This document shows, piece by piece, positions 3,436 through 25,983 of a DNA stretch of 64,000 nucleotides. Source of the DNA: Trypanosoma brucei (Eukaryota); contig CM000208.1 in the NCBI GenBank assembly GCA_000002445.1, positions 256,001-320,000 of the forward strand, given 5' to 3'. The translations under genes and the position numbers were made by a program. The notes under the pieces were generated by a model. That model saw only the letters and a list, made by a program, of their open reading frames with translations. It was not told the DNA's origin and did not search any database. Numbering within the stretch: the first letter of the stretch is position 1; every line of letters begins with the position of its first letter.

Positions 3436-5265
3436 ATGGAGTTAATTGATCCCGTAGTCCCCTATGGTGACCGAGAGGTGCAAGAGGCTTTGCGACTGCT
3501 CGAGGAGCCCATCATCGTATTTGGTGAAACAATGTCAGAGCGTCGGCAACGTCTACGCAAGCACATGGTGGAAAAGGGATACGGAAGCTTGGATGCAGTC
3601 CGCGGGATACAACATTATTCAGGCTTCACTGCTGCAGCTGCGGCAACTCCGCGTGTTGGCAGAATGATTTCTGGTGCGGTTGAAGCAGGGGGAAAACTTT
3701 CCGATGCGCCATCAGAACTCGTCAAGAAGCGTGTGGCCCTACTTCCTGTTACGCTGGAGCGGGCGGAACGGCGGATCGCAAAACTAAAGGAGGCGTTTGT
3801 TGCACCCACTGCCGTTCGTGCCGCGCACCACTCGATGGTTGATCGGCTGCGCGGCCTCCGCTTAACGAAGTCAGTTCGCAACGTGAAAGTTGTTAGACAA
3901 CGTGATGGGCCGTCGACATCTGAATCTGCGTCTATTTCAGAATTCTTTTGCATGCCCTTCACCTGCTGCGCGGCAGTCCCAGCGTTGGATCATATCGCGG
4001 TAACTGGTGCCGTGAACGGTGTCGTAACGATGTGGAGTGCTTCAACTTGTCGTGCTCTTGGAAGTGGATCCACGTGTGAGACTGGCTGGGGGCCAGTGCG
4101 GCATCTTGCGGCGCATCCCATTCAGCCACTCTTTTTTAGCACAACAATGTTCGACTCGCGCATCGCAATGTGGCGCATTTCCACGCAACCCCTGGACGAT
4201 ACGAGTAACGCAGGTGAAAGTGGCTCCAGCGTGGCCGGTGCTAATGGTGGAACAGGTGCAGTTGCAGACACCAACTTGTTCCTCAAGCGAGTGGCGCTAA
4301 GTAGCTCGAAACATACAGCAGGTATTAACCGAATCGCAGTGGACCCCACTGGTGTTTGGCTTGCTTCTGCAAGTGATGACACCACTGTGCGCTTGTGGGA
4401 CATCAATAACGACACCCCACTTCTTCCGCTGGTTTCTCACAACGGATATGAAGATGTGTGTGGTATCCTTGATGTGCGGTTTCATCCAGACTCATCACTT
4501 TTAGCTACAGCTGACAAAGCAGGGCGCGTAGTTGCGTGGGATCTAAGGAGCGGGGCGGTCTCCTTCACCGCGGCTGGGAAACACGGCGGTCATTTGCAAG
4601 CCTGTACATGTCTTTCATGGTCGCTGTGCGGTTTTCGGTTCGCTACGGGTGGTGCCGACAACAATGTGCACGTCTGGGATGCGCGTTACCTGTGTCGCGG
4701 AGCGGCCGGAGCCCCATGCATACTGGCGGGTCACGACGACGTCGTCACATCCGTGGAGTTCTGCAGAAACCCCAGCTTCCCAGCCGTTCCAGCCGCACTC
4801 GTTTCCACATCTCTCGACGGAACGGTAAGATTATGGGATATGAATGCCACGGGTGCAAGTGTGCAGGTGTTGCGAGGGCCTTCTCCCGTTCGTGGACAGT
4901 GTTGGCCCGCAGAAGGGGGGCAAACGGGGGAAACGTTGTTTACCGTAGCCCATAGTAAGTACTGGTCGTTGTGGAGTTGTGTTGCGGATGGGGAGAGTTG
5001 CGAAGTCACTCGCAGAGAGACAGAGGACACTGTTGTCTCGGAGGTGGTGACACTGTTAAGGGACGACGTCGTGACGAGTGGCTTCAGAGAAGAGGAAGGC
5101 GATGGGGATGACGAAGAGGAAGAGGAAGACGAGATGATGGCATTGCGAAAACATAATAAGACAGCCACTGGGGAAAGTTGTTTGGCCCCCAACAATGGTG
5201 ATGAATGTGCCCACGAAAGCACCGATGATGATGAGGATGAAATGCAACTACTGAAGAGAAAGTAA
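3436..5265 (+). CDS. PRP4: U4/U6 snRNP PRP4-like WD40-repeat splicing factor
   Basis: The N-terminal motif EPIIVFGETMSERRQRLRKH resembles the PRP4/SFM signature (EP..LFGE....RR.RL). Multiple WD40 blades follow, ending in VRLWD, VVAWD, VHVWD and VRLWD. The C-terminus carries an acidic D/E tail. Confidence 0.75.
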   Translation: MELIDPVVPYGDREVQEALRLLEEPIIVFGETMSERRQRLRKHMVEKGYGSLDAVRGIQHYSGFTAAAAATPRVGRMISGAVEAGGKLSDAPSELVKKRVALLPVTLERAERRIAKLKEAFVAPTAVRAAHHSMVDRLRGLRLTKSVRNVKVVRQRDGPSTSESASISEFFCMPFTCCAAVPALDHIAVTGAVNGVVTMWSASTCRALGSGSTCETGWGPVRHLAAHPIQPLFFSTTMFDSRIAMWRISTQPLDDTSNAGESGSSVAGANGGTGAVADTNLFLKRVALSSSKHTAGINRIAVDPTGVWLASASDDTTVRLWDINNDTPLLPLVSHNGYEDVCGILDVRFHPDSSLLATADKAGRVVAWDLRSGAVSFTAAGKHGGHLQACTCLSWSLCGFRFATGGADNNVHVWDARYLCRGAAGAPCILAGHDDVVTSVEFCRNPSFPAVPAALVSTSLDGTVRLWDMNATGASVQVLRGPSPVRGQCWPAEGGQTGETLFTVAHSKYWSLWSCVADGESCEVTRRETEDTVVSEVVTLLRDDVVTSGFREEEGDGDDEEEEEDEMMALRKHNKTATGESCLAPNNGDECAHESTDDDEDEMQLLKRK

Positions 5266-5661: not shown

Positions 5662-8600
5662 ATGCCACGTGGAGGAGTCCGTTCTGATTCACACGTGGCG
5701 GCAGAAAAACCGCCGCGTTTACCTAATGCCGACTATTTCATTGACTCCATCAACCCTGATGATCCATCATCTATAGTTGCAGCTATGCGCTTCCTCATTG
5801 AAATGTCTGCCAACCTTTCGGATCACGGAAACCAAGCAGAAAGCATTAAATGTGCAGAGTCTGTTCTCTTACTGAGACGCGCACATGAGAATGCAGTAGC
5901 ACCACTCATTGGACCGCTCGTTGAAGAGGGGTTGTTACCTCTTTGCAGTGTAGATCACGCCGCAGACATTGTTCTCCGGTGCAACAGCAATGCTGTGAGC
6001 GCCTTTAACCAACGGTGCTTCGACATGGCTGAACTGTTTCTAGGTAAGGCGCTCTTCTTAACTGATAGTCGCACTACCGAGGAGCTGAATTACTTCCCTT
6101 CTGCGGAAGCACGCCGCCTGCGCCTACGTGCCGCCACACTGAACAACCTTGGTTGTATGGAAAAACGCCGTGGAAGATTGGAGGAATCGCTCCGGTATTT
6201 GCGGCAGGCCGTGGATATGGAAGTGGCACTCGACAGGACAACTGGTGGATCACCGTCAACATACCTCAACATGTGCACCGTACTCAACGAACTCCAACGG
6301 CATGACGAGGCGGTTATTGCGGTTGAAAACGCCCTTTCTGCTATGAACGAGCAGATGCTTCGGCAGCAACACAAGCAGCAACTACCAACATGTGCTATGA
6401 TGCTCGTGGTGGGGTTATATAACCTGGGAGTTTCGCTTGAGCTACGTAACCGCAGCGGTGATGTCGAGAGGGCAAAGAATGTATATCAGCAGGCATTGGA
6501 GGCCAGCCGCAAGTATTTTGTTGATCCGGCATGCCCAACAGTAGAAATGGCAATGATGGCAATCCAGCGAATGCACGCAGACCCGGTGTTCAGGGAGGAG
6601 CGACTTGAGAAGGAAAAGAAGGAGCGTGGTAAGACGGCAAAGGGACCACTACCACCTATATCAAAAGCAGCATCCGCGGATCATTTTTCGTCGGCAACAG
6701 AACCGCCGCCGCAACAACAACAAGCTGCACAAGAAACCGCTACGTCAGTTATGTCTGTTATACCAAGCACTCCAACACGCATCTCGTCGGCGTCGAAGGC
6801 GTCGATATTAACCCCGCCCCTTTCTTCGGCCACTCGACCGCAGATGCCCAGAAATATGCTACCGGACCACGAATCGACCAACCGGAAGGGGCCCCCTGAG
6901 CGGTCTGTTGCGCCCGATATGCAGAGGGAGCCCCAAGGAGGGAGTGAAGAAGAGTCCCCGGGACCGCAGGATCCACAATGGTCATCAACGCCAGGTGGAA
7001 GACCGTCGTTTCCACGGACTCAGGCGTCAGCCTGTTCTCCACCATCGCCACAATTCACGCTTTATCGACCGGAAACACGTCTGGAGGCATCTGTTCAAGA
7101 GGAACAACCACCACCTGTAATCGAGATTGAGCCGGAGTCCACCCAACTGTCAGCGCCCGTACCATTACAACTGCTGCCCCAACAGCGGCAAAGCGAGGAA
7201 GCGTGCTTAAACCCTCTTGAGGATGCAAAAGCAGCCCCATGCAGTGAGTCTAGTTCTGCCAAGTCTGCAGCTGCGTTGGTGGCGAAGCCAGGGGTGCCGG
7301 GTCTTATGAAAGTGAACACGCAGGTAACTGAGTGGCGATCCGGGGTAGTCCGCGGTCAGTCGCCGAAGTCTTTGTCCGACGAATTGCGTGCGCAAACGGT
7401 ACCGGAAGTCACGAAGAAGGCCCCCAGCATGGGTTGGTCGGGCTCTTCCCTATTTAGTCGCTTGGAGAGCATGTCGGTTAAGAGCGGTCCCTCTTCGCAG
7501 GATCCTTTCGTGTGCTCAACAACAGCTAAACAAGCTGCCTCAGGACCACTGGGGGCCACAAAGCGGTCGGGCATTAGGCCACTGGTGCTTTCCCCTATTA
7601 GGTCCCAGTCGCTAAAATCGGGAAGCACAGCCAGTGCCGGGGTGTCGGACGGGCAACATCGCATTGCTCTCTCCTCTGTGTTCGAGTCAAAGGATGCGAG
7701 GAAGCTAAGTAAAGGATCTAGTTCCTCTCGGTTAGATACGATGAGTCTCTTTGGTCGACGTCGCTTTGCAAGCATCACATCGCTTGCACCTAAAGACAGT
7801 TCGGAAACGGCTTCGACGAGCCGGCCTATCCTTTCCGCGCAACAGGCTGCCTCAGTGGAAAAGCATCTCATGCGCGCCCAGCTTGGACAGAAAAAGGCAG
7901 AGGAACTACGGGGAAGCCTTTCCGCAGCAGGTCGCAGCGCTGCACTTGCCAGGGCGAAGGAACGAGAGCAAAAGCGTCTAGCCAAAGAGGAGGCCAAAAA
8001 CGACGTCGCATTAGCAGGGGTGCTGTATGAGAAATTTGTTGAGGGAATGCGCACTGATGAACTTAGGCGCTGTCACCGAGCCGCTGTAGCCATTCAGCGT
8101 ATATGGCGTGGTAGCCTCGCGCGCACACTGCTGACAAGGATGGTTATTGCCTCCAAGAAGATTCAAAAAACTTTCCGCATTTACCTCGTGAAGTTACAGG
8201 CCATTAGGCTGGCGGAAAAGGTGATGGAAGAGCGGCGGCAATCCGCACGGTTGAAGAAGGAAATGGAAAATGCCATAATAATTCAGAACCGTGTGCGACA
8301 GTTCCTACGACGACTGGAAATACGGAGGTGCTACCTGGCGCGGAAGATGCGTCACCGAAATGCAGCGTGCCGCATTCAGCGTGGTTTCCGTGCCTTCCTC
8401 AGGTGGCGTGAGGAGCACCTCGCGGCTCTCATTGAGGCTCAGCGAGCTGAGGAAGAGCGAATCTATGAAATGGAGGTACGCGCTGCGCGGCGTATTCAGG
8501 TGGCTTATAGGTGCTACCTGAAGCGAAAAATGGAGTTCCTCTTCGAACAGGAGCAAGAGCGCCGCAAACATGCCGCAGAGGTCATTCAAGCTCGGATGCG

Positions 8601-10932
8601 CGGTGTACTGGCGCGCGCTTGGTTCCGCTACTACAAGGCTTATCACTACGAGCAGGAACTCAAATCGGCAACTAATCAGAAGCGAATCGTGGTGATGCAA
8701 ACAGCTACGAGAGCCCTCCTTTCTTCACGCCTTCGCAGACGGATGGAAATGGACTTACTTTACCAACTCCAACAACAAATCCTGAACAAGTCTGCAACCA
8801 AGATACAGTGCCAGTGGCGCAACCGCTTAGCGCGAATCAAGTTAGATCGATTACGTGCAGAAAAGGCGGTGTTGGAGCGTCGGGTAACGCGTGTTAAGCG
8901 GTGGTACCAGACACGTGTTCTGCGTCGAAGTTTCCTGCAAGTAAGAGAGAACAGGCGCCAAAACGACGCAGCCACCTGCATCGCGCAGTGGTACCGGATG
9001 TGTAAAGTGAGAGAGAAAGAAAGAGAAACTGCACGATACCATGCAATTAAGGCACGTGAGGCTCGTTTGGCGCGTCTTCAGGCAGACTCTGTTGTGCTGC
9101 TACAGGCCAGTTGGCGGGCCCATAACAGTTTCGTCTACGTCAGAAGTGTGCGGAGTTCATTCTTGCGCCTTACGCTCTGCGCGGAGTTCTTTCAGCGTAT
9201 TGCCAGGGGGTTTCAAGGACGAATGGAACTCTTCGCGTATAAGTGTTTTCTCATCCGTCAGGCACAGGAGCGCGTTGAGGCCCAGCGTCGAGCAAGGGCC
9301 GCTTGCGTTGTTCAGCGTGCCTGGAGGTGCGCATTTGCAAAGGATAGGGTGGTGCATATGCGAAGATGTCACGTCGCAGCAACCATGATCTCAAAACACT
9401 ATCGTGCTCGCTTATGTAGAATGGAGCTGCAACGGCTACGGGAGGCCAAGAGGTTCGAAGAGGAGACGGCAGCAGCCATGCGGATACAGAAGGCCGCACG
9501 CCACTTCTTACGCCGTCTGGATTTGCTTCGTCATGAGAATCGTAAAAGGAAGCGGAAGGAGAGGATGTTTATCCTCATGCGCCGCGACGAGGCCGCGACG
9601 ACGCTCCAGGCAATCTGGCGCGGACGAGTAACACGGCGAGTACTTGAAGAGGAAAGGAGAGAATTAGCGGCATTAGAGGTACATATCCGGAAGGTGCAGC
9701 GCGCGTGGCGAACGCATAAATTCCGCTGCGGAATAAATGCGACGGTATTGAAGCATACTGACCTCCGGAAGAGGCGCTCCACAGCGGCGCTCAAGATTCA
9801 ATGCTTCTGGAGGAAAATGGTTGCTGCAGAAAAGGTGGCCGTCCTCCGTCAGTTGCATAGGCGCCGTGTAAAGAATGCAAGAATTATCCAACGGTGGTGG
9901 CGGTGCATGCTGGCGAAAATGGAGTTGGAGGCGCGTAGGTTGAAACGACAAGAGGAAGTAGCGTATCAACTCTATTATATGGAAAGATGGGATGAGGCCG
10001 TTAGTCTCATTAACGCCTTCTTGCAGACAATGCTCTCGCAGCAGCATAGGCTGGTGGTGAAGAGGAAGAGACTACTTGAGCAACTGACGGATAAGGAACG
10101 GGAACGGTACCTCCGCAGACACGCGGCCATTATAAAAATTCAAAGGTTCTACCGCGGACACTACGAGCGTATGTATGCACGTGGGGTTAGGCGAAAGAAG
10201 ATGGAAGAGGAGCAACGCAAACGCGAACAGGAAGCCTTGGAACAGCGAAGCGCTTTGGCTATACAGTGCGCTTATAGGGTGTTTAGGGCGTGTTGTGAAG
10301 TCACAGCACGTCGTAGGGCAAAGAGAGAGAAACAGTTGGCCGAGGAGCTGGAACACTACACGACAATGGATCCACAGGATGTCGTGCGCAACCTGTTCTG
10401 GATGCACGAGTCACATATGAAACGCGACCACATCAGGGGGCGTCTCAATGTCAAGGCGCGAAGCGACAAGGCTGCGGTCGTGATTCAGAGGGTGGTTCGA
10501 CGCTGGCTTGCAGAACTCCGTATGGCTCGCAGAAGGGAGAAGAGCAAAGCACTGAGGGCTGTTGCGATCATTAAAAGCTACTGGAAGAAATACCTTGAGT
10601 GCAAGCGCGCTAATCTGTTAGAAATACAGAGGCGTGCGGCTACGATCATTCAGGCACAGTTTCGGGGCTACATTCACCGATGCGAGTGGGAAGAACGGCG
10701 ACAAGCATCTGAGAAAGAGAAAAGACAACAGGTATTGGGAGAGAATAAGTTCGACGCTACGGCCACCGTTTTGCAGTCCTTCTGGCGTCGCATCACGGCG
10801 CAACGCTTGGTGAACCGGATGCGAGAGGAGCGCATGGAAGAAAAGAACTTCCATGTTACCAATGAGGCGGCCCGTACCATTCAGCAGGTGTATCGGTGTT
10901 ATAGAGAACGCCGCATGAATCAAAATCAATGA
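5662..10932 (+). CDS. Large IQ-motif array protein (N-terminal TPR/helical region plus about 25 IQ calmodulin-binding-like motifs), ASPM-like architecture
   Basis: 1756-aa ORF. From about residue 800 to the C-terminus there are repeated [AIV]xxIQxx[WFY]R motifs, for example AAVAIQRIWRGSLAR, AIIIQNRVRQFLRR, ACRIQRGFRAFLRW and AALKIQCFWRKM. The alternative internal start MRFLIEMS is possible. Confidence 0.8.
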   Translation: MPRGGVRSDSHVAAEKPPRLPNADYFIDSINPDDPSSIVAAMRFLIEMSANLSDHGNQAESIKCAESVLLLRRAHENAVAPLIGPLVEEGLLPLCSVDHAADIVLRCNSNAVSAFNQRCFDMAELFLGKALFLTDSRTTEELNYFPSAEARRLRLRAATLNNLGCMEKRRGRLEESLRYLRQAVDMEVALDRTTGGSPSTYLNMCTVLNELQRHDEAVIAVENALSAMNEQMLRQQHKQQLPTCAMMLVVGLYNLGVSLELRNRSGDVERAKNVYQQALEASRKYFVDPACPTVEMAMMAIQRMHADPVFREERLEKEKKERGKTAKGPLPPISKAASADHFSSATEPPPQQQQAAQETATSVMSVIPSTPTRISSASKASILTPPLSSATRPQMPRNMLPDHESTNRKGPPERSVAPDMQREPQGGSEEESPGPQDPQWSSTPGGRPSFPRTQASACSPPSPQFTLYRPETRLEASVQEEQPPPVIEIEPESTQLSAPVPLQLLPQQRQSEEACLNPLEDAKAAPCSESSSAKSAAALVAKPGVPGLMKVNTQVTEWRSGVVRGQSPKSLSDELRAQTVPEVTKKAPSMGWSGSSLFSRLESMSVKSGPSSQDPFVCSTTAKQAASGPLGATKRSGIRPLVLSPIRSQSLKSGSTASAGVSDGQHRIALSSVFESKDARKLSKGSSSSRLDTMSLFGRRRFASITSLAPKDSSETASTSRPILSAQQAASVEKHLMRAQLGQKKAEELRGSLSAAGRSAALARAKEREQKRLAKEEAKNDVALAGVLYEKFVEGMRTDELRRCHRAAVAIQRIWRGSLARTLLTRMVIASKKIQKTFRIYLVKLQAIRLAEKVMEERRQSARLKKEMENAIIIQNRVRQFLRRLEIRRCYLARKMRHRNAACRIQRGFRAFLRWREEHLAALIEAQRAEEERIYEMEVRAARRIQVAYRCYLKRKMEFLFEQEQERRKHAAEVIQARMRGVLARAWFRYYKAYHYEQELKSATNQKRIVVMQTATRALLSSRLRRRMEMDLLYQLQQQILNKSATKIQCQWRNRLARIKLDRLRAEKAVLERRVTRVKRWYQTRVLRRSFLQVRENRRQNDAATCIAQWYRMCKVREKERETARYHAIKAREARLARLQADSVVLLQASWRAHNSFVYVRSVRSSFLRLTLCAEFFQRIARGFQGRMELFAYKCFLIRQAQERVEAQRRARAACVVQRAWRCAFAKDRVVHMRRCHVAATMISKHYRARLCRMELQRLREAKRFEEETAAAMRIQKAARHFLRRLDLLRHENRKRKRKERMFILMRRDEAATTLQAIWRGRVTRRVLEEERRELAALEVHIRKVQRAWRTHKFRCGINATVLKHTDLRKRRSTAALKIQCFWRKMVAAEKVAVLRQLHRRRVKNARIIQRWWRCMLAKMELEARRLKRQEEVAYQLYYMERWDEAVSLINAFLQTMLSQQHRLVVKRKRLLEQLTDKERERYLRRHAAIIKIQRFYRGHYERMYARGVRRKKMEEEQRKREQEALEQRSALAIQCAYRVFRACCEVTARRRAKREKQLAEELEHYTTMDPQDVVRNLFWMHESHMKRDHIRGRLNVKARSDKAAVVIQRVVRRWLAELRMARRREKSKALRAVAIIKSYWKKYLECKRANLLEIQRRAATIIQAQFRGYIHRCEWEERRQASEKEKRQQVLGENKFDATATVLQSFWRRITAQRLVNRMREERMEEKNFHVTNEAARTIQQVYRCYRERRMNQNQ

Positions 10933-11277
10933 TGTAAACACAGCAGTTAGTTATTATACTAGATGTTTTATTGCAAAATTCACCCTCCCTTCTCTCCCCA
11001 CGATCCGTACATACACTTTCGTCTTTACTTCTTTCCCCTCCATTTGATGTTGCTCCTCTATCTTTGTGAGAGCGGTGGGATGAGGTTGCTTACGTTGTAA
11101 TGCAGTTTTTCTCAACCCCATGTCTGTATGACAGCAGTGCAACGAAGATATGTAAGAGGTATTTTAGAGGACAGAAACACAAACAGCAGCAGCAACGGAG
11201 GGGCTCTAGTGACCACTTGGATGCCTTTCTTCTTTTTTTCTATGTGTGGTGGTCTACCCACCGAAGGGTAGAAGGGA

Positions 11278-13221
11278 ATGTGTATTCCCCTCTCCTCTCT
11301 CTTTTGCCATTGTCCTTATACACATTGTTGTCCCGTGTATTCTCCCCGCATTTCTTTCATCATACATGTAACATGCCATGTCGCGAGCAAGGGTTGGGGT
11401 ATGGCCGCCGTGGAGCCATACAGACGCTTTGTGTCGATAGAGCTTCCCTTTTGCCTTCCTGTAACGGTGGAAACCAACACCGACGGTACCCATTCCTCAT
11501 GTGCCACGGCCACGGCGGATCGCCACACGGTAGAGGCATTTGTTCCCCCGTCATTCCTTCGACCTTGTATCGACGACATCATACCGACGGCACGGGAGAA
11601 GGCGGAACGTCAGGAAGGAGGTAACGACACCGCGGGAAAGGGTGAACCGAAGGAAATGTTGGGTATTGCAACAACGACGGAATATTGCACGGGGGAAATA
11701 TTCTCAGGGTGGCGGTCGCTGGATTTTGACGCGGATCTGGAGAGTCGTTTGGAGGGAACTGCCGACGGAAACCGTAGCAAGCTGACGACTACGGCAAATG
11801 AAGAAGGGGAGGCAGAAAGAGAACGAATAAGGCGCGAGTCCTTTCCCTCCATTACCCCCCAGCTCTTGCTTCAGGGATTCTTTCGTAATGATCTCCTGGT
11901 GGAGGTGAAACGCACGCGACGGGTTAAACGATTGCGTAATGTGGAGACGGGACGTGTGGTAAAAGAAACTTACGTTGATGGTGGCACTGATCACAAGCAA
12001 ACGGGGGTAACTGTATTAGGTGTTGTGTCACGCGAAGTAGACATTGTTAAACCGGCGGATTTCTGTTTTTCCCCTTTCACGAGCGAAAATATTGAATCAT
12101 TTCCAGAACTGTGCAGTGGGAACATTTTTCCACCAGGTCACTTTATAGGCGAGAAGAGTCCGTTCGAGGTCGCTTTAGTGTATGATTCACACTCGGGGAA
12201 GAGGGACATGGACCGCCTGGATAACACTGCAACATCATTTAACTGCGATGAGGCACCACTGTGGGAGTTTGAGGGCGTTCCCACGCTGACGATGGCAGCA
12301 GGCGACCCAAACATTCCACCGCCACCGAGTCAAGCGCAGATGGATATCCTCCGCCGCCTGAACGAAGGTTTTGATGAGCAAGGCTGCATAGAGGTGCGAG
12401 CCGTGAAGGCGCTCTTGGAAGAGCGTCCGGTATGGGTGACGAAGGACCTCATAGACGCCATTTTCGAAACGGGTGTATGCCCTCGCACACACATAAATAA
12501 AAAGGCTGTGGCGTGCTTGACGTATATCATTAAAAATGGGCCGTTTAATAGGATGCGCATCCGTATGGGGTTCAACCCATATGCCAACCCCAGCTCAGCA
12601 TGCCTGCAAAGAATCGCTGTGAAGATCTGCCGTCGCTCTGAGTTAGGTACATGCCTGCGTGACATTAGTCGCGTTCCCTACATCAATGAGGTGCTGCAAG
12701 AAATACTTGACAGTAAATCCCACAAGCGAGGCTCAGAGGAGGATAGCGGTGCTTTCAAACGGCCAAGTTCGCTGCCATACCGCCCACGGGGAACACTTTT
12801 CGAGAGGCTCGCAAGGGCTATTGGGCTAGGACAACTTTATGTCGCCCTTCAGTTAATTGATGTGAGTGATGACGCCTTTCTACAAGAACTACTTTCAACC
12901 GTCTCCGCAGATGCAGAAATTCCCCTTGAAGACCGTACGTGGCGATGTGGTTGGATAGGTAGTGGGTGTTACCAGCGAGCTATCAATCACATAATTAGTA
13001 CCTTTACAACATTTATTCGAGAAGAGGTAGAACCAGTGCTGCAGAGGAGACGAAGCGGCCAAGAAAACGACCAAGTTGGGGAAAGTGCAGGTGAGCGGTC
13101 TCCGTATGCCTCCTCCACCTCCAGTGTGTCACCAGAGAGTTATGGTGATGATGATAATGAGGACTCACTCGAGAGTGTTAGTCCTGTAGACGATTTGTCC
13201 CAGCATCCAGATGACGGATGA
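11278..13221 (+). CDS. TFIIIC subunit tau95/GTF3C5-like protein (Pol III transcription factor). The true start is probably Met at 11401
   Basis: The segment ERPVWVTKDLIDAIF...YIIKNGPFNRMRIRMGFNPYANP resembles the conserved tau95 core, recalled from human GTF3C5 (ERPIW...GPWR..WIRFGYDPRKNP). The first 41 codons are Cys/His-rich and overlap the upstream polypyrimidine tract. MAAVEPYRRF at 11401 is the more plausible start. The C-terminus is an acidic Ser-rich tail. Confidence 0.55.
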   Translation: MCIPLSSLFCHCPYTHCCPVYSPRISFIIHVTCHVASKGWGMAAVEPYRRFVSIELPFCLPVTVETNTDGTHSSCATATADRHTVEAFVPPSFLRPCIDDIIPTAREKAERQEGGNDTAGKGEPKEMLGIATTTEYCTGEIFSGWRSLDFDADLESRLEGTADGNRSKLTTTANEEGEAERERIRRESFPSITPQLLLQGFFRNDLLVEVKRTRRVKRLRNVETGRVVKETYVDGGTDHKQTGVTVLGVVSREVDIVKPADFCFSPFTSENIESFPELCSGNIFPPGHFIGEKSPFEVALVYDSHSGKRDMDRLDNTATSFNCDEAPLWEFEGVPTLTMAAGDPNIPPPPSQAQMDILRRLNEGFDEQGCIEVRAVKALLEERPVWVTKDLIDAIFETGVCPRTHINKKAVACLTYIIKNGPFNRMRIRMGFNPYANPSSACLQRIAVKICRRSELGTCLRDISRVPYINEVLQEILDSKSHKRGSEEDSGAFKRPSSLPYRPRGTLFERLARAIGLGQLYVALQLIDVSDDAFLQELLSTVSADAEIPLEDRTWRCGWIGSGCYQRAINHIISTFTTFIREEVEPVLQRRRSGQENDQVGESAGERSPYASSTSSVSPESYGDDDNEDSLESVSPVDDLSQHPDDG

Positions 13222-13960: not shown

Positions 13961-15124
13961 GTGCCAAGCATGGCAGCAGTGATGAAATTAGAAAAGTTCT
14001 TCGTTGCAACGCTTATCGTTGCCGTCACGAGGTGCTTCGCAGAGGAAGTGGACACCGTTGCTCCAGGTAAGGCACCACCACAGGACGTAGTAAATACCTT
14101 GTGTGGGGCGAAGCATTTATTAGAAGCAGTAAATAAAAAGGCGGGGACTCTTGCGAGCGAAGTAGAAAAGCATGTCACTGATGCGAAGGCTTCTCTAGAC
14201 GGAACTGTCAAAGCGTCAAAGAGCACGCAGACCTTGTACGAAAAACTGCAGAAGGATGTAATGGATGCGGGCCTTACCGCTGTTGTTGTAGAACGGATGA
14301 AGGGAATTGCCGACGCCGCTGTCGAGGTGGCGGCGAGTGCCGAGGAAGCTTATGAAAAAGTGATACGAACGAATGAAAGTGTTGGGACAGCCGCAGCGGA
14401 GATAGAAACGAGTTCGAACCACTCCGCGAACCTTATCGACAAAATACTAATGGCCACCGCGGGGGTGGAAGATAAGGAAACAGAAGAAGACTTTTGCAGT
14501 GGTGTTGAAAATAAATATGGTGATGGCCTCAAGAATGCGAGTCGGCCGCATTGTCGACTATTTGACAACTGTAAGTTGGACGATATTAATGGCAAGGCAT
14601 GGCAGCCCACGCACATGGAGCTGGTAATCACATACCATGGGATATGTTATCGTCTTGACGCGGTAGAACTGTCTATGGGAATTGCAAAGGACGCGGCTAC
14701 GAAGGCATCGCAGATGAAGACGCGTGCTGAAGAGGGAATGGCGTCAGCTTATCAAGAGTCGATTGTCGTGGCGAGGGAAATTGCCGGGGAGGCGGAGAGA
14801 AAAAGACTACTAGCAGAAAAGGAGCTGGCGGAAACAAGGGAGAAAGCGGCTGCAGATGCCAAAGCTCGGAAAGAAGCGGAGGAAGAAATGAGACGGAGGG
14901 CCGAAAGGGAAAGAGCGGAAAAAGAGGAAGCTGTCGCTAGGGCGGAGCGAATGGAAAAAAAGGGGAAAACAGTAGCCGAAGTTGTGGTGAAGGCTGAACA
15001 TGATCAAAAGGCAAAAGACGGTGCAAGTGACATCAGCAGCCGGAGAATCGGATCCCTATGGAGTCCATTGCGCGACGTTTGGTTAATACTTCCTGCCGCC
15101 TCGCTGTGTTTATGGACTCAATGA
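13961..15124 (+). CDS. Putative secreted or GPI-anchored surface-type protein, with signal peptide, alpha-helical KE-rich region and hydrophobic C-terminus
   Basis: The N-terminus MPSMAAVMKLEKFFVATLIVAVTRCFA has an h-region and a cleavage-like site. Cysteines are spaced through the N-terminal half. A K/E/R-rich helical block lies at about residues 270-340. The C-terminal GSLWSPLRDVWLILPAASLCLWTQ is hydrophobic, like a GPI addition signal. Confidence 0.55.
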   Translation: MPSMAAVMKLEKFFVATLIVAVTRCFAEEVDTVAPGKAPPQDVVNTLCGAKHLLEAVNKKAGTLASEVEKHVTDAKASLDGTVKASKSTQTLYEKLQKDVMDAGLTAVVVERMKGIADAAVEVAASAEEAYEKVIRTNESVGTAAAEIETSSNHSANLIDKILMATAGVEDKETEEDFCSGVENKYGDGLKNASRPHCRLFDNCKLDDINGKAWQPTHMELVITYHGICYRLDAVELSMGIAKDAATKASQMKTRAEEGMASAYQESIVVAREIAGEAERKRLLAEKELAETREKAAADAKARKEAEEEMRRRAERERAEKEEAVARAERMEKKGKTVAEVVVKAEHDQKAKDGASDISSRRIGSLWSPLRDVWLILPAASLCLWTQ

Positions 15125-16365
15125 AAGAAACTTATAGGACTGTTGAAATTCACACGAACACGTCATATGATACGAACTCTACAGTCAAGCGATTTGAATT
15201 GTGCCGCACCTCTCCCGGTGCGTGCCCTCAATATTTCTATTCGTATTCACCTAGCCTTCGTTAAGGGTGAATACGGTAACGTATAATTTTTGCTTTATAA
15301 AGGGAAAATGAAGGGAACTTATTAGTGTGAATAAAGCGGGTGACGGAGGGCTCCCTCAGTGTTTATCCGATTACGATGTGAATGTTATTTGTCTTCCTCA
15401 AGTGAAGTTTGGTGTCGTGATGCAGTTGGAACATGCCATTGGTTGCGCGACATGATGTTTTGCTGCTGTTTCTTTTAAAAGGAAAAAAAACAAAGTATTG
15501 ACAACAACAATAATAATAATAATAGAGTGAATAGATACGCGATGGAAAGGAGGATGGGGGCGGTTGCTGTCATCCCACGCCTAAACACTATGCGCTGTTC
15601 GTCACCTGCATGGTTAACAACCCCGTGACTTATCTCATAACATCCCATTCCGACACAGCATTCGTTCCCGTAAGCGAAGTTTTTTTTCCCCCTTCAATGT
15701 GCTTTTGCGAGGCGATTATCCTTAAGGAAGATCCACGTATGTGTTTATGTATTTTCGTATTCATGAATTTGTGTACTTATATATTCGCACAAGTAAAATG
15801 AAGGAACAACTGTTTTTGTCTCATATTGTTTTCTTTTTTGTTTTGTTTTCAATGGGAGGACGGTTCTCTTCATTGGGGGAAACCCCGTTTGAAATTTTAA
15901 CGGGGAAGCGGTTTAGGGCCAATAAAACCGTCTAATGTTGATGAACTTTCCACACATCAAGAAATTTCGTACCACAATCAGCACCTACCTCTGTTTCTTG
16001 CGTTGCGGTTTGTAAAGTTGCTGGTGACGCAGTAAAGTGGAAATAAATAAATAAACATAAATAAAATTCTGCAGCGCGGAGGGGGAACATATGATTTATT
16101 ATGAAAATGTGTGTTCTCGAATATGAATCTCCCTTTTTATCCTTGTGTGTTTTTGCTATTTTTTCTTTTATTAAGTACCCAACACAGTTGATAGGCTGTT
16201 CGTACCGCTGCGTCCGAAGTAAAAAATTTTTTATTTTTTATTTTTCCTTTGAACAGTAATAACGATAGCAGCAGCTATAGCACCGACCATCACCACTAAT
16301 AATAATATTATTGTTGTTGTTATTGTTGCCGCCCCTTCAAATATTATCGGCATTACGTGTGAATA

Positions 16366-16848
16366 ATGAAAGCCCGTTCCTCCCGCCCAGTGACAACAAT
16401 AACGGTGACATCAGAAGAAACCATTCAAACGCACAATGCACGTGATACCCCACGGACATTTGAGTACAAAACCAAAAGGAATGAACTCATGCGAAGGTTG
16501 GAGGAAATGCGAAATGCGTTGGAAGAAGATAATAATAATAATAATAAAGGATCACGTGTGAAACTTTGTTATTATGATATTACATTTAATTGCAGGGATC
16601 CCGTCGATGTTACTGTTATGAGTGGCTTTCAGAGATTTGAGGGACTCGGGGACACATTAAGCGGACACATGAAATGCGAAGAAGATGACAGGCACAAATT
16701 TGTGGGGTTAATTAAAGAAATTATTCAATTGGATGTGAGTCACCGCGCGAGGAATATGGACAAAAGTGAAATTGCGGTAGTGAGGATTGCAGCAAACTTC
16801 AAGGAACTTAACAGCACCTTCACGAGAAGCGCGGCAACACTCCTTTGA
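16366..16848 (+). CDS. Hypothetical 160-aa protein, last ORF of the plus-strand array
   Basis: ORF with varied, coding-like composition. It contains an in-frame (AAT)n microsatellite encoding NNNNN. A long AT-rich spacer lies upstream. Confidence 0.4.
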   Translation: MKARSSRPVTTITVTSEETIQTHNARDTPRTFEYKTKRNELMRRLEEMRNALEEDNNNNNKGSRVKLCYYDITFNCRDPVDVTVMSGFQRFEGLGDTLSGHMKCEEDDRHKFVGLIKEIIQLDVSHRARNMDKSEIAVVRIAANFKELNSTFTRSAATLL

Positions 16849-19800
16849 GTACAGCTGTTGTTTGCCTGCTTGTTTATTTTGTTGTTGTTGTTTTCTTTTT
16901 TCATTTTCCACCTTCAACATTACCAACTCCAATCCTCCACCCGTGTCGTTGCCGCAACCCCTTCAGCATTCAAAATAAAAAAAAAGAAACATATATAAGC
17001 GTGCGTGTGTGTCTGAGTAATTGGATATTGTATTTTTGACATCCGTTCTATTCAAAAAAGGAACCTGACAAAACAAGCGCATACCGTTTTCCTGCATAAT
17101 TTTTTTTTCTATTTATGTACTCATACATGCGCTTACTAACACTAAGCGAGATGAAAGATATCATATCATGTGATGCGGTGCAAGTTTTGGCATTTTTTTT
17201 TTAATTTTTTACTTGCACTTCAATAACAGGACGATAAACGGAAGTGAGGTACGTCAAGACAAGCCAAGTGTGTCGAAGAAATTTATCAGCAGAAGTCGTT
17301 TCGGCATGCATTTACGCATATTTTTATGTTTATGCATATAATATAAAAGCATATTCATATACTCATTGGTTTATTATGAGCGTGGTGTAATGGTGAATGT
17401 CATTCAAACATTTACACTATACACTTCTTTTACGTTTCATTGGTGCACTAACATTAAAAGTGGGAGTGCCCAGATGAAAGATATTTGGCTGAATATTTAT
17501 ACCGCCACGTAGCGCATAAATAAACAGACATATATTTTTATAAATACAAATTTATCGACGCAATGCAACCGGAGCACCACGGTGGCCCCTACGAGTTATA
17601 TGCCCACTTCTCCTCAAAGAAAAAATATTTTATCTTTTTTTTCATTTTATTTTCCTTTTTACACCTGTGCTGGGAAACTAAACGTATGTCCCGTAGTTTT
17701 TTTTTTATGTACGTGTAGGGGAGGACGGTGGGGAAATGGTCGACGTTGGACGCTTCGAATGGGAGCTCAACCATAACACTATTTTTAGCGTGTGCTTTTT
17801 TTTCTTTTTTAGTTCCTTCTACTGTTCGCGGTGCAAAACAAAAGAACAAATCGCGTACCGTCATATCGCTCGTTTTTTTATTATTATTTACTATTTCCCC
17901 CCCCCCCTCCCTTTGTGGCGTTTCGTTGTCCCCAATTGCTTTTTCTTTCCTTTCCTTCATGTTTGTCCATTTACTGACTGTCAGGATCGAAGAACAATTG
18001 AATAATGGTAATAACAAAGGGCAACTGCACACTTCGCCGTCTAATATGAGGAACGGGATTTTTGAATTGTGATGCCTTCAAGTTCCCTCAAGTCCCAAAA
18101 AATATATATATAGTGTTTCTTTTTGTCCCCTTTACTTCAGCGGTCATGCAAAATCAGCTCCTTCATTTGTTACGGTGCTGAAATTTACTTGAAGTTGTCG
18201 TATTTTAGGGAACCCATGCATGAACACTAACAACAATATTAGTGAAACAATTGCTTAACATATGTGTCTCTGCTGTGATTTCCTTCTTGTGAATTACCTA
18301 ACGGTGTTCAAAAAGTCATTTCGTTGATGCAATTTGTTTCCCCTCCCTTGTTTTGTGGTGACGTACTTTTGACACCGCTGTTGTTTTGCTGGGTCTGATG
18401 GAAGGTTCGGGGACGCAGAAACGGAAAAAGCGAAGGGGAGACATACACTTCTTTTATAATAATAATAATGAGGCTGACTTCCCTATCCTTTTGGCCTCCA
18501 TTAAATTCCTTTTCTTTCCGCCTTGAGCTGCTAGAGCTTTTCCCCAAACTGTATAAACTGCAGAGGGCCACTTAGAAGCCGTGCCGTAGCGAGAGGTTCC
18601 GAATTGACAAAAAGAAGAGCGCGTCAGTCCTCCCTCACAGGTTAACCGCTTTCTAAATAGTTGGAAATTACACAAATATCAACACAGTCCCGCTCACTTA
18701 TTCGCAAGCCGACTTTCGCGTCACAACATTGCGGCCCTCATAAGAAAGCCCTCGCTGTCATCCATTGGAAACCCGTCTCGGTTGACTTCAATAATGTATG
18801 AAACAGGAAGAGTAGCCACCGGGGGAAAGAGGCAGAGAGAGGAACGCCGACGCGTTCCGCTATTCTGGGTGTCAGTTCCATCATGCGTTATCATGGTCTC
18901 GCTTCGGTGCGACTTCTTGAACATTCCAGTAGGGGGCTGTGACAGCGACTTGGCTTTACGGGATTGTTGTTCTGCAGCGCTTCTGGGTTCATTTATTCCT
19001 TCAGCTTTCGCACTTGGGGCCATTCGAGGAAATCGGCGAAGGGTTTCTGGCACCTCAGTCTCATTTAAGTGTGGTTTTCTCCCCCCCCCCCCCAATTTCC
19101 TTGCCGAGTGCCCATCGCAGGTGCCCTGTCAACCCAGCATTCCCGAGAAGGTACTTGGGAAACACCGAATAAGTGCGGCTCCCCGCCCCTCTTTTCTTTC
19201 GTTGCTTCGGTGTGGCCCCAGTGTTTTCTGTCGCCCAAAACCACATTCACCATGTCTGCCCACGTTACTGCGAAAGCAGGGCCCTTAAGAGGCAGCCCTC
19301 AATGCATAGGATGCCGTTCAACTCTTTTCCCAACCTCTCCATTGATGCGATGACGCGTGGTGCGGTGCCTTGTACGAATCCCTGTCACCTCGGCGGCGAT
19401 CCCGCGCTCCCCGACGGCAAGTTTCTTCGCCAAAAAAGCGCCGTTCTCCCAGGGAGGAAAATACCCAAACATTCTTTCACGAGCGGATGTACCCTAAACC
19501 GATCCCCACTTACAGGCGAAAAGCCCGTTGTTTACCATTCCCCCCTTTGTTCTCTCCCTCTCTTTGCCCCATTTACTCCACGCACTCCCCACACGTTTCA
19601 AAAACTTCGCGATCCCCGTGCACGACGTCCAATTTCTCTTTCCCTCCTCATTTCCTCTAACCCTCACAATCTTCAACCTCACCAGCTCCACCATATCCTT
19701 AAACCCCCTCGCCTTCTCTGTTGCGTCTTTGGCTTTTGCTTGAACGAAGGCATACACCAATTTCAATCTCCCTGATATATTACAAAGCCCCCACAGGGCC

Positions 19801-20451
19801 CACTTATCTTGAGTTCACCATTATCCGCAGACGTAAATCTACGAAAGGCAAACAGGACGCAACCAAAGTAATGACTTCTTTTGCGGGCATTCTATGTGTA
19901 GTTTCGGAGGTGAAGGGGAAAGCACACCGAAGTGAAAACTTAGCACCGCAGAAGCACTCCCCGACTAGGCTTAAATACGTTAACATGAGAATATAAGATA
20001 ACATAAGTGAAGCAACGAAAAGAACATAAAAGACTAATATACCAGAAAACACCGCCAACCCCAGCGTAGAGCCTCATCCCGAAAAAAACGAGAGTAAAGA
20101 TCGTTATTTCTGATATCGGGGTAAAGATGGCAACTCGCACACGGAGGATCAGCTTAAAGTACATCTTCTAATTGCGCACCGCTGAAAAGACAAATAATTA
20201 CTTGCGTTAAGTGTCAACTAGATCCCCTCGACCCACAGAGGAAATATCCACCGAAACCAAAGACTACATTTCACTGTGAACAACGAAACACGGGCGGTGC
20301 CTCGGATGGCAAAAAGGTTGTCCCTTTTGAGGATGGCTCATTAAAACATGGTGGGCTTTTGGCGCCCTCAAGGGAGACATCCATAACAATTAGGGGAAGC
20401 TGACTACCAACATTCTACATTTATCAAAGCCTACAAACGACCCCCTCCAAC

Positions 20452-20670
20452 ATGGGTGCCGGCAGCTCGTCTGCGTCTATTCGTGGTGGAGCGTCCGTTG
20501 TTGAGGAATCGAAAACAGAAGGAACTCCAGAAAGCATGGTAACTCCGCTTGGGCTTTCGGATGAGGAGCAGCCCAAGGTCACATCAACCTACTTCCCCAC
20601 CCTCAAATATAAAACGGCTCTAATGGAGTCATGGAAAAGCCGGAACCGTTGCGCAGAAGAAGGATGTTAA
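20452..20670 (+). CDS. Possible small ORF with an N-myristoylation-like start (MGAGSSSA...)
   Basis: 72-aa ORF. Gly2 and Ser6 fit the MGxxxS/T myristoylation consensus, and the composition is coding-like. A CT-rich tract of about 650 bp lies directly upstream, where a trans-splice polypyrimidine signal could sit. Confidence 0.2.
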   Translation: MGAGSSSASIRGGASVVEESKTEGTPESMVTPLGLSDEEQPKVTSTYFPTLKYKTALMESWKSRNRCAEEGC

Positions 20671-21573
20671 GTTGATAACTGGTGAATGTATGGAACAGGT
20701 ATTTTCAGTTGCCAACAGAAGAGCCCTAATACGATAAAGATCAGTTAAAGGAGAGTTCCCCCCGTCTTATGTGATCTGCTTTAAACACTCTGAGATAACA
20801 ATATGGAAAGCTTTGAGGAACTCTGGAAGCAGTTGCAGTTGGATCCCTTGCGATGCAACACTTGGGAATGACAGGGAGATTTGTACGTTGAAAGCCTTAG
20901 AGGCTATCGTATTCGTGGAGGGTGGTCGTTTGACCGACATTTGGGAGGCGGAGCGCGACAGAGTACCGTGCCACACGTGAGAAAGTTGTTGAAGAGAGGA
21001 GAATATCTCAATGATACCATTGCACATTTTATTTGCCAAATTGCGGCTCAAGCAGTTACTAGGAGGAAGGGGTGCGGAGCCGCGGCGCCCGGAAGAATCA
21101 TGAGGCGCATAAACATCAAGGGGGTGGACCTCATTGTACTAATGAAGAAGGTGTCGAATGAAACAGTTGTGCGGGAATGAGGATATGGGGCTTCAAAACC
21201 ATTCATCATCAGGGGGGGGGAATGTTGGAGGCTGCTAAAGTTGGTATTCGTGCCGTATCTGTTAACCACTTGGAATCTGGTTGTTAGTGGTTACCGCCTT
21301 CCAAAGAGGCAGCCGATGCATACAAGGGCGGGCACATATGCACAGCCCTCTCGCAAAGATACACTCAACACATTCACTCACACATACTTAAACGGACCCG
21401 CAGAATGTCAAGTGCTTTACTCTTTTTGAGCAACCGACTCCGAAAACTTGCCCCTTCGGATAAAAAAAGTGAGTGTTTGTGATGAATAAATACGGAAACA
21501 CTTCCTATCATATGTGGGACACTGAGGTACACGAAACATACGGTGACGGAAAAGGGGGATTCAAAACCCTCAA

Positions 21574-21852
21574 TCATGACACGACTTTACTAAATCCTTC
21601 TATTTCTATCTGTTTCAAGCACTTGGTCATAACTGGAACACTCAGTTCCTCCTTCTGTTGCAGCAATAAAAGAATAGACTTTTGTATACTCCTCTCAGTC
21701 AATCCCTTGTCTCTTTCAATATGCATCAAAACTGTCTCATGAAGGAGTTCCATAACCTCGTCCCGCAATTTGTCAGCGCGTTGAATAAACACGCTTGCAA
21801 TTATATCTTGTAGTTCTCGCAGTTCCGGAAGCCACGGCGTGGTGGAGTGGGC
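21574..21852 (-). pseudogene. Protein-like C-terminal fragment at the edge of the strand-switch region (...LPELRELQDIIASVFIQRADKLRDEVMELLHETVLMHIERDKGLTERSIQKSILLLLQQKEELSVPVMTKCLKQIEIEGFSKVVS)
   Basis: The C-terminal ~90 codons of the 149-aa minus ORF look like real protein sequence. The N-terminal part is low-complexity (GGEGGGG, poly-Leu) and runs over the C/A/G homopolymer block, so an intact gene is doubtful. Confidence 0.25.
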
Positions 21853-22258
21853 ACAACCACAAATAACTAAAAAACTAAGACCCCCTCTAGTGAGATTCAA
21901 CAAAGACAAAAGGTAAAACACGCAAAAAGTCAGTAGTCTACACGGAAAAAAGGAATATTTCAAAACATCCACCAACAAATTACCGCCCCCTCCCTCCCCC
22001 CCCAAAAAAAAGGGGGATCGCAAAAAGAAACTACATTCAAGGACACCAAAAGCACTCGCCGTTGCAAAACATTACTATAGTCACCAGCATGCGCCAGCTG
22101 GGATCCACTACTTTTCCGATTGAAAAAAAAATACTACGAGATCAAAAATAGAAAGCATACTAATCACTGAAGGGAACGACCCTGTCTTATACCACAGGTA
22201 CAGAAGGAAATATATACTCGTCTTCAATGCAATACACATAAATTCGAACAGACTCCGG

Positions 22259-23653: not shown

Positions 23654-23974
23654 TTGTATGGGAACTTACTTCTACACAGATGATCGAAAGAAACAAATCA
23701 CAATCGGAGAGGAACGGGAGGCAACGGAATGCCGAATTTGGAAACCATGAGAGAGCACCCAACATAGTCACGAAGTTGCAGTATGCTGACCAACGTCCAA
23801 AAAAACATCCGTACAAAGCATGTCGGAAGCAAAGCATTGAGAAACAGCAAAATATTTAAAGTCTTTAAAAGAATAAAAAACACTCGCAGCCACATACCGT
23901 CATAAGTCAGGGCTTTTTAAAAGCAGTAAAGGAATCAATTCAATGCAATACACATAAATTCGAACAGACTCCGG

Positions 23975-25369: not shown

Positions 25370-25983
25370 TTGTATGGGAACTTACTTCTACACAGATGAT
25401 CGAAAGAAACAAATCACAATCGGAGAGGAACGGGAGGCAACGGAATGCCGAATTTGGAAACCATGAGAGAGCACCCAACATAGTCACGAAGTTGCAGTAT
25501 GCTGACCAAACAAGGAATTATCTATTATTTGAGGAGGAGGAGAAACATTAAACGCCAGCGAGCTACGTTAATGCGGCCATTGAAATTGAGAAACTCATCA
25601 TTTCTGGCAGCAGCAGAAGTGAGGTACCAGAAAGTAGAACATTCCCCCTCTATTGTGCAGTGGCATATGCATTCAATTGTAACACAGGCATTGGACCCGC
25701 AAATATGCCACTTCATAGAAGTGCATAGCAAGTCTATACGGCAGTAAAGACACAATGTAAAACATAAAGTCCAGAACCGGTAAGGGCATCCAAGAGACAC
25801 AAGGTCCACAAAAACATCCGTACAAAGCATGTCGGAAGCAAATCATTGAGAAACAGCAAAATATTTAAAGTCTTTAAAAGAATAAAAAACACTCGCAGCC
25901 ACATACCGTCATAAGTCAGGGCTTTTTAAAAGCAGTAAAGGAATCAATTCAATGCAATACACATAAATTCGAACGGACTCCGG

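What the first reader, a model, noticed from the sequence alone, without database searches (positions are those of the whole stretch)
11278..13221. TFIIIC tau95-like protein inferred from a conserved core, with an implausible Cys/His-rich 5' extension in the ORF call
The core ERPVW...YIIKNGPFNRMRIRMGFNPYANP resembles the conserved block of TFIIIC subunit 5 (tau95/Sfc1), as I recall it from human GTF3C5. Pol III factors in kinetoplastids are highly divergent and sparsely annotated, so a tau95 assignment would be useful. The first 41 codons of the ORF overlap the upstream pyrimidine tract and look untranslated, so the start at 11401 (MAAVEPY) is preferred. The long acidic Ser-rich C-terminus matches the acidic tails of tau95.
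Basis: partly seen in the sequence, partly recalled or inferred. Interest (0 to 1): 0.5.

Follow-up and report, generated by a model that had tools for sequence, protein, structure and literature searches.

The report
Known trypanosome TFIIIC subunit Tau95
This gene is the already published Trypanosoma brucei Tau95 subunit of the RNA polymerase III factor TFIIIC (Tb927.10.980), and its first 41 annotated codons are an annotation error that was reported in 2010.

Summary
The ORF at 11278-13221 (+) is real. It is an exact match to T. brucei brucei TREU927 XP_822356.1, which is gene Tb927.10.980 (old ID Tb10.70.7170). The window is chromosome 10, 256001-320000.

The tau95 assignment holds:
- Pfam Tau95 HTH domain: E = 1.2e-21, 78 bits against a cut-off of 23.7, full model length.
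- The best PDB sequence hits are S. pombe Sfc1, human GTF3C5 and yeast tau95.
- Profile-profile comparison also recovers the N-terminal Tau95 triple-barrel domain (92-95% probability; reversed control 0.3%).
- The C-terminus is acidic and Ser-rich.

The protein was characterised experimentally in 2024 (PMC10781861). [quoted passage not shown]

- All seven other Trypanosoma orthologs begin at that Met.
- T. cruzi, T. theileri and T. vivax have no possible in-frame upstream start.
- Kolev et al. 2010 (Table S1) list this ORF as having a misannotated start, with the 5'-most spliced-leader site at window 11369.
- The TriTrypDB mass of 67.4 kDa equals the 606-aa form.

Verdict: observation confirmed, interpretation supported, nothing new. 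Low interest.

The parts
11278..11400 (+). Spurious 41-codon Cys/His-rich 5' extension of the GenBank ORF call. It is a pyrimidine-rich trans-splicing signal plus a short 5' UTR, not coding sequence.
   Evidence: It is 66% pyrimidine and 24% Cys+His. No ortholog has it. It is listed as a misannotated start in Kolev 2010 Table S1.
11285..11358 (+). Polypyrimidine tract region (Y-runs at 11285-11305, 11340-11347 and 11351-11358). It lies in a 112-nt gap between successive AG dinucleotides (11273 to 11386).
   Evidence: Gaps between AGs of 110 nt or more make up 13 of 3848 gaps in the window (0.34%).
11369..11400 (+). 5' UTR measured from the 5'-most mapped spliced-leader addition site (chr10 267369). 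The canonical AG acceptors at 11386-11387 and 11390-11391 lie inside it.
   Evidence: Kolev 2010 Table S1 row Tb10.70.7170, with an offset of 256000 derived from the identical ORF coordinates.
11401..13221 (+). TbTau95 coding sequence (606 aa, 67.44 kDa, plus stop codon), gene Tb927.10.980.
   Evidence: PMC10781861.
11401..12123 (+). N-terminal Tau95_N-like (triple-barrel, Tau55-dimerisation) domain, residues 1-241, with kinetoplastid-specific insertions at about residues 60-90 and 105-160.
   Evidence: hhalign gives 92% probability, E = 6.6e-7, collinear with the Tau95_N region of the outgroup. The reversed control gives 0.3%. The Pfam Tau95_N HMM itself gives no hit.
12124..12624 (+). Tau95 HTH / winged-helix part of the DNA-binding domain (residues 242-408). 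It contains the ERPVW and GPFNRMRIRMGFNPY motifs.
   Evidence: Pfam PF09734: E = 1.2e-21, 78.4 bits, model positions 1-144 of 144. Alignments to Sfc1 4bji and human GTF3C5.
12625..13062 (+). C-terminal part of the DNA-binding domain (winged-helix-interacting region, residues 409-554), with the conserved GW..Y motif.
   Evidence: hhalign of the C-terminal half against the outgroup: 99.94% probability, E = 5.4e-37, 327 columns. A weak second stretch matches Sfc1. This is the only well-predicted part of the AF2 model, with pLDDT 70-89.
13063..13218 (+). Acidic, Ser-rich, disordered C-terminal tail (residues 555-606).
   Evidence: Composition and net charge. pLDDT below 50. Acidic tails are present in nearly all orthologs. 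The tail is noted in PMC10781861.
13222..13810 (+). 3' UTR up to the 3'-most mapped polyadenylation site (chr10 269810).
   Evidence: Kolev 2010 Table S1.

Best explanation
The locus is Tb927.10.980, the Trypanosoma brucei ortholog of TFIIIC subunit tau95 (Sfc1 / Tfc1 / GTF3C5). The mature mRNA is trans-spliced inside the annotated ORF, so translation starts at the ATG at 11401 and yields a 606-aa, 67.4-kDa protein.

The protein has three parts:
- An N-terminal, insertion-rich triple-barrel domain. By homology this pairs with Tau55.
- A winged-helix / WH-interacting DNA-binding domain.
- An acidic tail. In S. pombe this tail auto-inhibits DNA binding.

The protein is part of a four-subunit TFIIIC (Tau95, Tau55, Tau131, Tau138) that sits on tRNA and U2 snRNA genes and, by analogy with other eukaryotes, helps recruit TFIIIB and Pol III.

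What is shown: domain homology, the start codon, complex membership and gene occupancy. The last two come from published experiments. What is inferred by homology: Tau55 pairing through the barrel, A-box contact, and auto-inhibition by the tail.
For: - The 647-aa ORF is an exact match to TREU927 XP_822356.1.
- Primers published for TbTau95 map onto the ORF, and the 383-bp RNAi fragment spans 12496-12878.
- Pfam Tau95 gives E = 1.2e-21.
- PDB hits are to Sfc1, GTF3C5 and yeast tau95 only, apart from one hit at E = 1.7 in the profile search.
- hhalign gives 99.94% for the C-terminal half and 92-95% for the N-terminal domain, with a negative reversed control.
- Synteny is conserved in T. vivax, T. 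cruzi and T. theileri, with the IQ/TPR gene upstream.
- PMC10781861 reports nuclear localisation, ChIP on tRNA and U2 genes, and TAP-MS recovery of Tau55/131/138 and C82. PMC11894013 reports the reciprocal pull-down with C82.
- The start at 11401 rests.
Against: - The Pfam Tau95_N model does not hit any of the 16 kinetoplastid proteins, even at E <= 10. The N-terminal domain therefore rests on profile-profile evidence and on published homology modelling.
- My AF2 model was poor (mean pLDDT 46.7) and gave no meaningful fold matches.
- The published RNAi did not deplete the protein, so essentiality and a direct transcriptional role remain untested. No ChIP signal was found on 5S rRNA genes.
- The mapped 5'-most SL site at 11369 is not preceded by AG in the TREU927 sequence. 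The mapping was done in T. b. rhodesiense YTat1.1.
Confidence: 0.97

Rival explanations
1. The full 647-aa ORF from ATG 11278 is translated, at least in some life stage or strain. This would need an upstream trans-splice acceptor (AG at 11265, 11270 or 11273, after the Y-run at 11224-11241). The product would be a T. brucei-specific Tau95 isoform with a Cys/His-rich N-terminal extension.
For: A second polypyrimidine run (11224-11241), followed by three AGs, lies just upstream of ATG 11278. GenBank and RefSeq, and the gambiense and equiperdum annotations, keep the 647-aa model. The 2024 paper cloned from this ATG and quotes about 72.8 kDa.
Against: Kolev 2010 reports the 5'-most SL site at 11369, downstream of this ATG, and lists the ORF as misannotated. 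No other Trypanosoma ortholog has the extension. T. cruzi has a stop codon four codons upstream of the conserved Met, and T. vivax and T. theileri have no in-frame ATG there. The composition is that of a translated pyrimidine tract. TriTrypDB's 67.4 kDa equals the 606-aa form.
Confidence: 0.03
2. The protein merely shares a winged-helix fold with tau95 (as TFIIF-beta-like proteins do) and is not a TFIIIC subunit.
For: Sequence identity to fungal and human tau95 is low, at about 17% to S. pombe. The Pfam Tau95_N model is not hit. One outgroup Tau95 protein also touches the TFIIF_beta HTH model weakly.
Against: The Pfam Tau95 match covers the full model, at 78 bits against a 23.7 cut-off, and no other family is hit. 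The N-terminal domain aligns collinearly with Tau95_N of proteins that carry both Pfam domains. Published TAP-MS recovers Tau55, Tau131, Tau138 and Pol III C82, and ChIP shows occupancy of tRNA and U2 genes.
Confidence: 0.01

Closest known systems
TbTau95 (Tb927.10.980; Mondragon-Rosas et al. 2024, PMC10781861)
   Same: It is the same gene. The ORF sequence is an exact match and the published primers map onto it.
   Different: Nothing biological. The paper's recombinant construct starts at ATG 11278 (647 aa), whereas the SL mapping, the orthologs and the TriTrypDB mass support the 606-aa form.
Schizosaccharomyces pombe Sfc1 (PDB 4bji DNA-binding domain)
   Same: It is the best solved-structure relative (E = 3.4e-5 with the single sequence, 2.6e-6 with the profile). 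It shares the RPVW...GPF...R.G(F/Y)(D/N)P motifs, the GW..Y motif and an acidic tail.
   Different: Overall identity is about 17%. The trypanosome N-terminal domain carries large insertions and escapes the Pfam Tau95_N HMM.
Human GTF3C5 / TFIIIC63 and S. cerevisiae Tfc1 (tau95) (PDB 8clk, 9gi4, 6yj6, 8ffz, 9gck)
   Same: They have the same two-domain architecture and acidic C-terminus, and they are hit in the DNA-binding domain.
   Different: They belong to six-subunit TFIIIC complexes. Only four subunits have been found in trypanosomatids. TbTau95 was not detected on 5S rRNA genes.
Leishmania major LmTau95 (LmjF.21.1100) and other kinetoplastid orthologs
   Same: They are orthologs with the same conserved blocks throughout. 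Identity is 30-55% in my alignment of kinetoplastid orthologs. The paper reports 34.9% for TbTau95 against LmTau95, which I did not align myself.
   Different: In my alignment, most non-Trypanosoma orthologs have short unrelated N-terminal leaders and longer low-complexity insertions. The association with C82 is reported to be strong in T. brucei and weak in L. major.

Membership tests
TFIIIC subunit tau95 (Sfc1/Tfc1/GTF3C5) | Tau95 HTH / winged-helix DNA-binding domain (Pfam PF09734) | tested here: met
   E = 1.2e-21, 78.4 bits (cut-off 23.7), model positions 1-144 of 144, residues 242-408. All 16 kinetoplastid orthologs hit the model. hhalign gives 99.94% over 327 columns.
TFIIIC subunit tau95 (Sfc1/Tfc1/GTF3C5) | N-terminal triple-barrel dimerisation domain (Pfam PF17682, Tau95_N) | tested here: met
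   The Pfam HMM gives no hit. A profile of residues 1-241 aligns collinearly with the Tau95_N region of 28 outgroup proteins: 92% probability, E = 6.6e-7, reversed control 0.3%. Against a broader outgroup the figures are 94.9% and E = 4.6e-8. Four of the 28 were confirmed to carry both Tau95_N and Tau95. Structure prediction was inconclusive.
TFIIIC subunit tau95 (Sfc1/Tfc1/GTF3C5) | Acidic C-terminal tail | tested here: met
   The last 70 residues hold 18 Asp/Glu, 13 Ser and no Lys, with pI about 4.05. The tail is conserved in the orthologs.
TFIIIC subunit tau95 (Sfc1/Tfc1/GTF3C5) | Physical membership of a TFIIIC complex (Tau55, Tau131, Tau138) | not testable with these tools
   Published TAP-MS with TbTau95-PTP recovers the three other subunits at 53-88% coverage. 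There is a reciprocal pull-down with C82.
TFIIIC subunit tau95 (Sfc1/Tfc1/GTF3C5) | Occupancy of Pol III-transcribed genes with internal promoters | not testable with these tools
TFIIIC subunit tau95 (Sfc1/Tfc1/GTF3C5) | Requirement for Pol III transcription | not testable with these tools
   The published RNAi failed to deplete the protein, so this remains untested.

The most novel reading that the evidence does not exclude
In some life-cycle stage or strain, an upstream trans-splice acceptor (AG at 11265-11273) is used. ATG 11278 would then be on the mRNA, and a T. brucei-specific 647-aa Tau95 isoform with a Cys/His-rich N-terminal extension would be made, possibly with altered localisation or regulation.
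Probability: 0.03. Interest if true: 0.3.

Novelty: already known. Interest (0 to 1): 0.07.

Why it matters
It matters little beyond annotation hygiene. The gene is the founding subunit through which a TFIIIC complex was shown to exist in trypanosomatids, but that was published in 2024, and the start-codon error was published in 2010. There are two practical residues. GenBank/RefSeq (XP_822356.1) still carries the 647-aa 'hypothetical protein, conserved' model. The 2024 study's recombinant antigen was cloned from the spurious upstream ATG.

Tried and rejected
- AlphaFold2 on the 16-sequence kinetoplastid alignment gave mean pLDDT 46.7 and pTM 0.34. Foldseek of that model against the PDB returned only noise, with every E above 2. 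I did not use the second prediction job. Only proteins returned by the search for homologous proteins may be submitted, so the alignment could not be deepened.
- A second word-indexed homolog search with the profile added only one Phytomonas protein.
- The Pfam Tau95_N model gave no hit for any kinetoplastid member. I replaced this test with profile-profile comparison.
- The supplements of Nilsson 2010 held no row for this gene. For Siegel 2010, no supplementary files are held.
- I looked for an AG immediately upstream of the reported SL site at 11369 and found none. The most likely reasons are that it is a minor site or that the strain used (YTat1.1) differs, but this is unresolved.

Full report
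**Observation**

An ATG-to-stop ORF of 647 codons lies at 11278-13221 on the + strand.

The first 41 codons (MCIPLSSLFCHCPYTHCCPVYSPRISFIIHVTCHVASKGWG) differ sharply from the rest of the ORF:
- They are 24% Cys+His, against 4% for the remaining protein.
- They are 66% pyrimidine at the DNA level. That is higher than any 123-nt window of the remaining CDS (mean 46%, maximum 61%).
- They contain Y-runs at 11285-11305, 11340-11347 and 11351-11358.
- No AG begins between 11273 and 11386. A gap that long occurs in only 13 of 3848 AG-to-AG gaps in the window.

The last 70 residues hold 18 Asp/Glu, 13 Ser, 5 Arg and no Lys.

**Identity of the locus**

- The 647-aa translation is an exact match to EAN77528.1 / XP_822356.1, 'hypothetical protein, conserved', from T. 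brucei brucei TREU927. UniProt Q38CE2 names it 'Transcription factor IIIC subunit 5 HTH domain-containing protein'.
- Kolev et al. 2010 list Tb10.70.7170 at chromosome 10, 267278-269221 (+). That is the same length as the window ORF, so the window is chr10 256001-320000.
- The gene is Tb927.10.980. Primers published for TbTau95 map onto it. The RNAi pair spans 12496-12878, which gives exactly the stated 383 bp. The expression primer ATGTGTATTCCCCTCTCC sits at 11278.

**Tests of the tau95 assignment**

- Pfam returns a single family, PF09734 (Tau95 HTH domain): E = 1.2e-21, 78.4 bits against a gathering cut-off of 23.7. The match covers the whole model (1-144) over residues 242-408 of the 606-aa form.
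- A sequence search of the PDB returns only tau95 proteins: S. pombe Sfc1 (4bji, E = 3.4e-5), human GTF3C5 and S. cerevisiae tau95.
- A profile of 16 kinetoplastid orthologs improves these hits. It also weakly picks up the GW..Y motif of the WH-interacting subdomain.
- An exhaustive profile search of 1.84 billion representative proteins found 72 proteins. Of the ten I scanned against Pfam, five distant ones carry both Tau95_N and Tau95.
- hhalign of the C-terminal half of the kinetoplastid alignment against 33 outgroup proteins gives 99.94% probability, E = 5.4e-37, over 327 columns.

**The N-terminal domain**

The Pfam Tau95_N model hits none of the 16 kinetoplastid proteins. However, a profile of residues 1-241 aligns collinearly with the first 123 columns of a strict 28-protein outgroup. 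That region corresponds to P0054 residues 1-185, and Pfam places Tau95_N at 20-175 in P0054. The alignment scores 92% probability and E = 6.6e-7. The column-reversed control scores 0.3% and E = 0.2. A broader outgroup gives 94.9% and E = 4.6e-8 for the block NDLLVEV...VLGVVSREVDIVKPADFCF.

The domain is therefore present but carries kinetoplastid-specific insertions, at roughly residues 60-90 and 105-160. This agrees with the published HHpred result (100%, E = 1.9e-40) and homology model.

**Published function**

Mondragon-Rosas et al. 2024 (PMC10781861) report the following for TbTau95:
- It is nuclear.
- It is highly enriched by ChIP on two tRNA genes and on the U2 snRNA gene, but not on 5S rRNA genes.
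- It co-purifies with orthologs of Tau55 (Tb927.11.1590), Tau131 (Tb927.1.3860) and Tau138 (Tb927.11.4520), and with the Pol III subunit C82.

A second paper recovers all four TFIIIC subunits with tagged C82. The RNAi experiment did not deplete the protein, so essentiality is untested.

The mechanism I commit to is the canonical one. The N-terminal barrel pairs with Tau55. The WH/WHI domain contributes to promoter DNA recognition within the Tau131-Tau95-Tau55 module. The acidic tail modulates DNA binding, as it does in S. pombe. These three steps are inferred by homology. Complex membership and gene occupancy are shown by experiment.

**Start codon**

Four lines of evidence support 11401:
- All seven other Trypanosoma orthologs begin at the Met that aligns with M42 (MAIIGPHRRF, MSGVAPHRRF, MANIPPYRCF, MSSVAPHRRF, MPNVEPHRRY). 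Conservation starts exactly there.
- In T. cruzi an in-frame stop lies four codons upstream of that Met. In T. theileri and T. vivax the upstream open frame contains no ATG.
- Kolev et al. [quoted passage not shown] The 3'-most poly(A) site is at 269810, which is window 13810, giving a 589-nt 3' UTR.
- The 606-aa form has a calculated mass of 67.44 kDa. This equals the 67.4 kDa TriTrypDB size quoted in both 2024 papers. The 647-aa form is 72.0 kDa.

There are two caveats. First, position 11369 is not preceded by AG in the TREU927 sequence. The mapping was done in T. b. rhodesiense YTat1.1, and only 75% of minor sites have an AG. The canonical AGs at 11386 and 11390 are the likely major sites, which would give a 9-13-nt 5' UTR. 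Second, a further Y-run (11224-11241) followed by AGs at 11265-11273 could in principle support an upstream splice site. I give that alternative about 3%.

**Context**

Synteny is conserved. In T. vivax, T. cruzi and T. theileri the same large IQ/TPR protein lies upstream of the Tau95 gene.

**Verdict**

Both the observation and the interpretation are correct. The identity (2024) and the start-codon correction (2010) are already in the literature, so novelty is 'already known' and interest is low.

Noticed in passing
window 11366-11380: If the mRNA really begins at the reported 5'-most SL site (11369), its 5' UTR carries two out-of-frame AUGs, at 11373 and 11378. The one at 11373 opens an 84-codon overlapping frame that ends at 11624. 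Splicing at the canonical AGs (11386/11390) would avoid both.
   Followed up: partly
window ~15100-22250: This is a convergent strand-switch region. All sizeable ORFs are on the + strand up to about 19.8 kb and on the - strand from 22.3 kb onward. It contains no tRNA gene. Kolev 2010 lists Tb10.70.7120 and Tb10.70.7110 (window 18794-19288 and 19302-19775) as ORFs without a detectable transcript, and ends the + strand transcription unit at Tb10.70.7140.
   Followed up: partly
window 22259-27384 (-): There are three tandem ORFs of 464-466 aa. The first is a Peptidase_S10 serine carboxypeptidase (E = 1e-108). They correspond to the CBP1 genes Tb10.70.7100/7090.
   Followed up: partly
window 13961-15124 (+): The downstream neighbour is a 387-aa Ala/Glu/Lys-rich ORF with hydrophobic N- and C-termini and no Pfam hit. 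The genes at the syntenic position in T. vivax hit the GARP (glutamic acid/alanine-rich protein) family weakly, so this may be a surface protein.
   Followed up: no
window 3436-5265 (+) and 5662-10932 (+): The upstream neighbours are a PRP4-like WD40 protein (PRP4 motif plus WD40 repeats) and a 1756-aa protein with an N-terminal TPR and many IQ calmodulin-binding motifs. The latter is syntenic with Tau95 in three other trypanosomes.
   Followed up: partly
window 28914-62556 (-): The rest of the minus-strand cluster holds ordinary housekeeping and flagellar genes: a CCT/TCP-1 chaperonin subunit, a protein kinase, a 1798-aa kinesin, an axonemal dynein light chain, a divergent tubulin-family protein (487 aa) and a 1752-aa WD40/TPR IFT-like protein.
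   Followed up: no
PMC10781861 versus window 11278: The 2024 paper's recombinant TbTau95 (pCold construct, used to raise the antiserum) was amplified from the spurious ATG at 11278, and the text quotes about 72.8 kDa. The paper's own mass-spectrometry table uses the 67.4-kDa (606-aa) model.
   Followed up: yes
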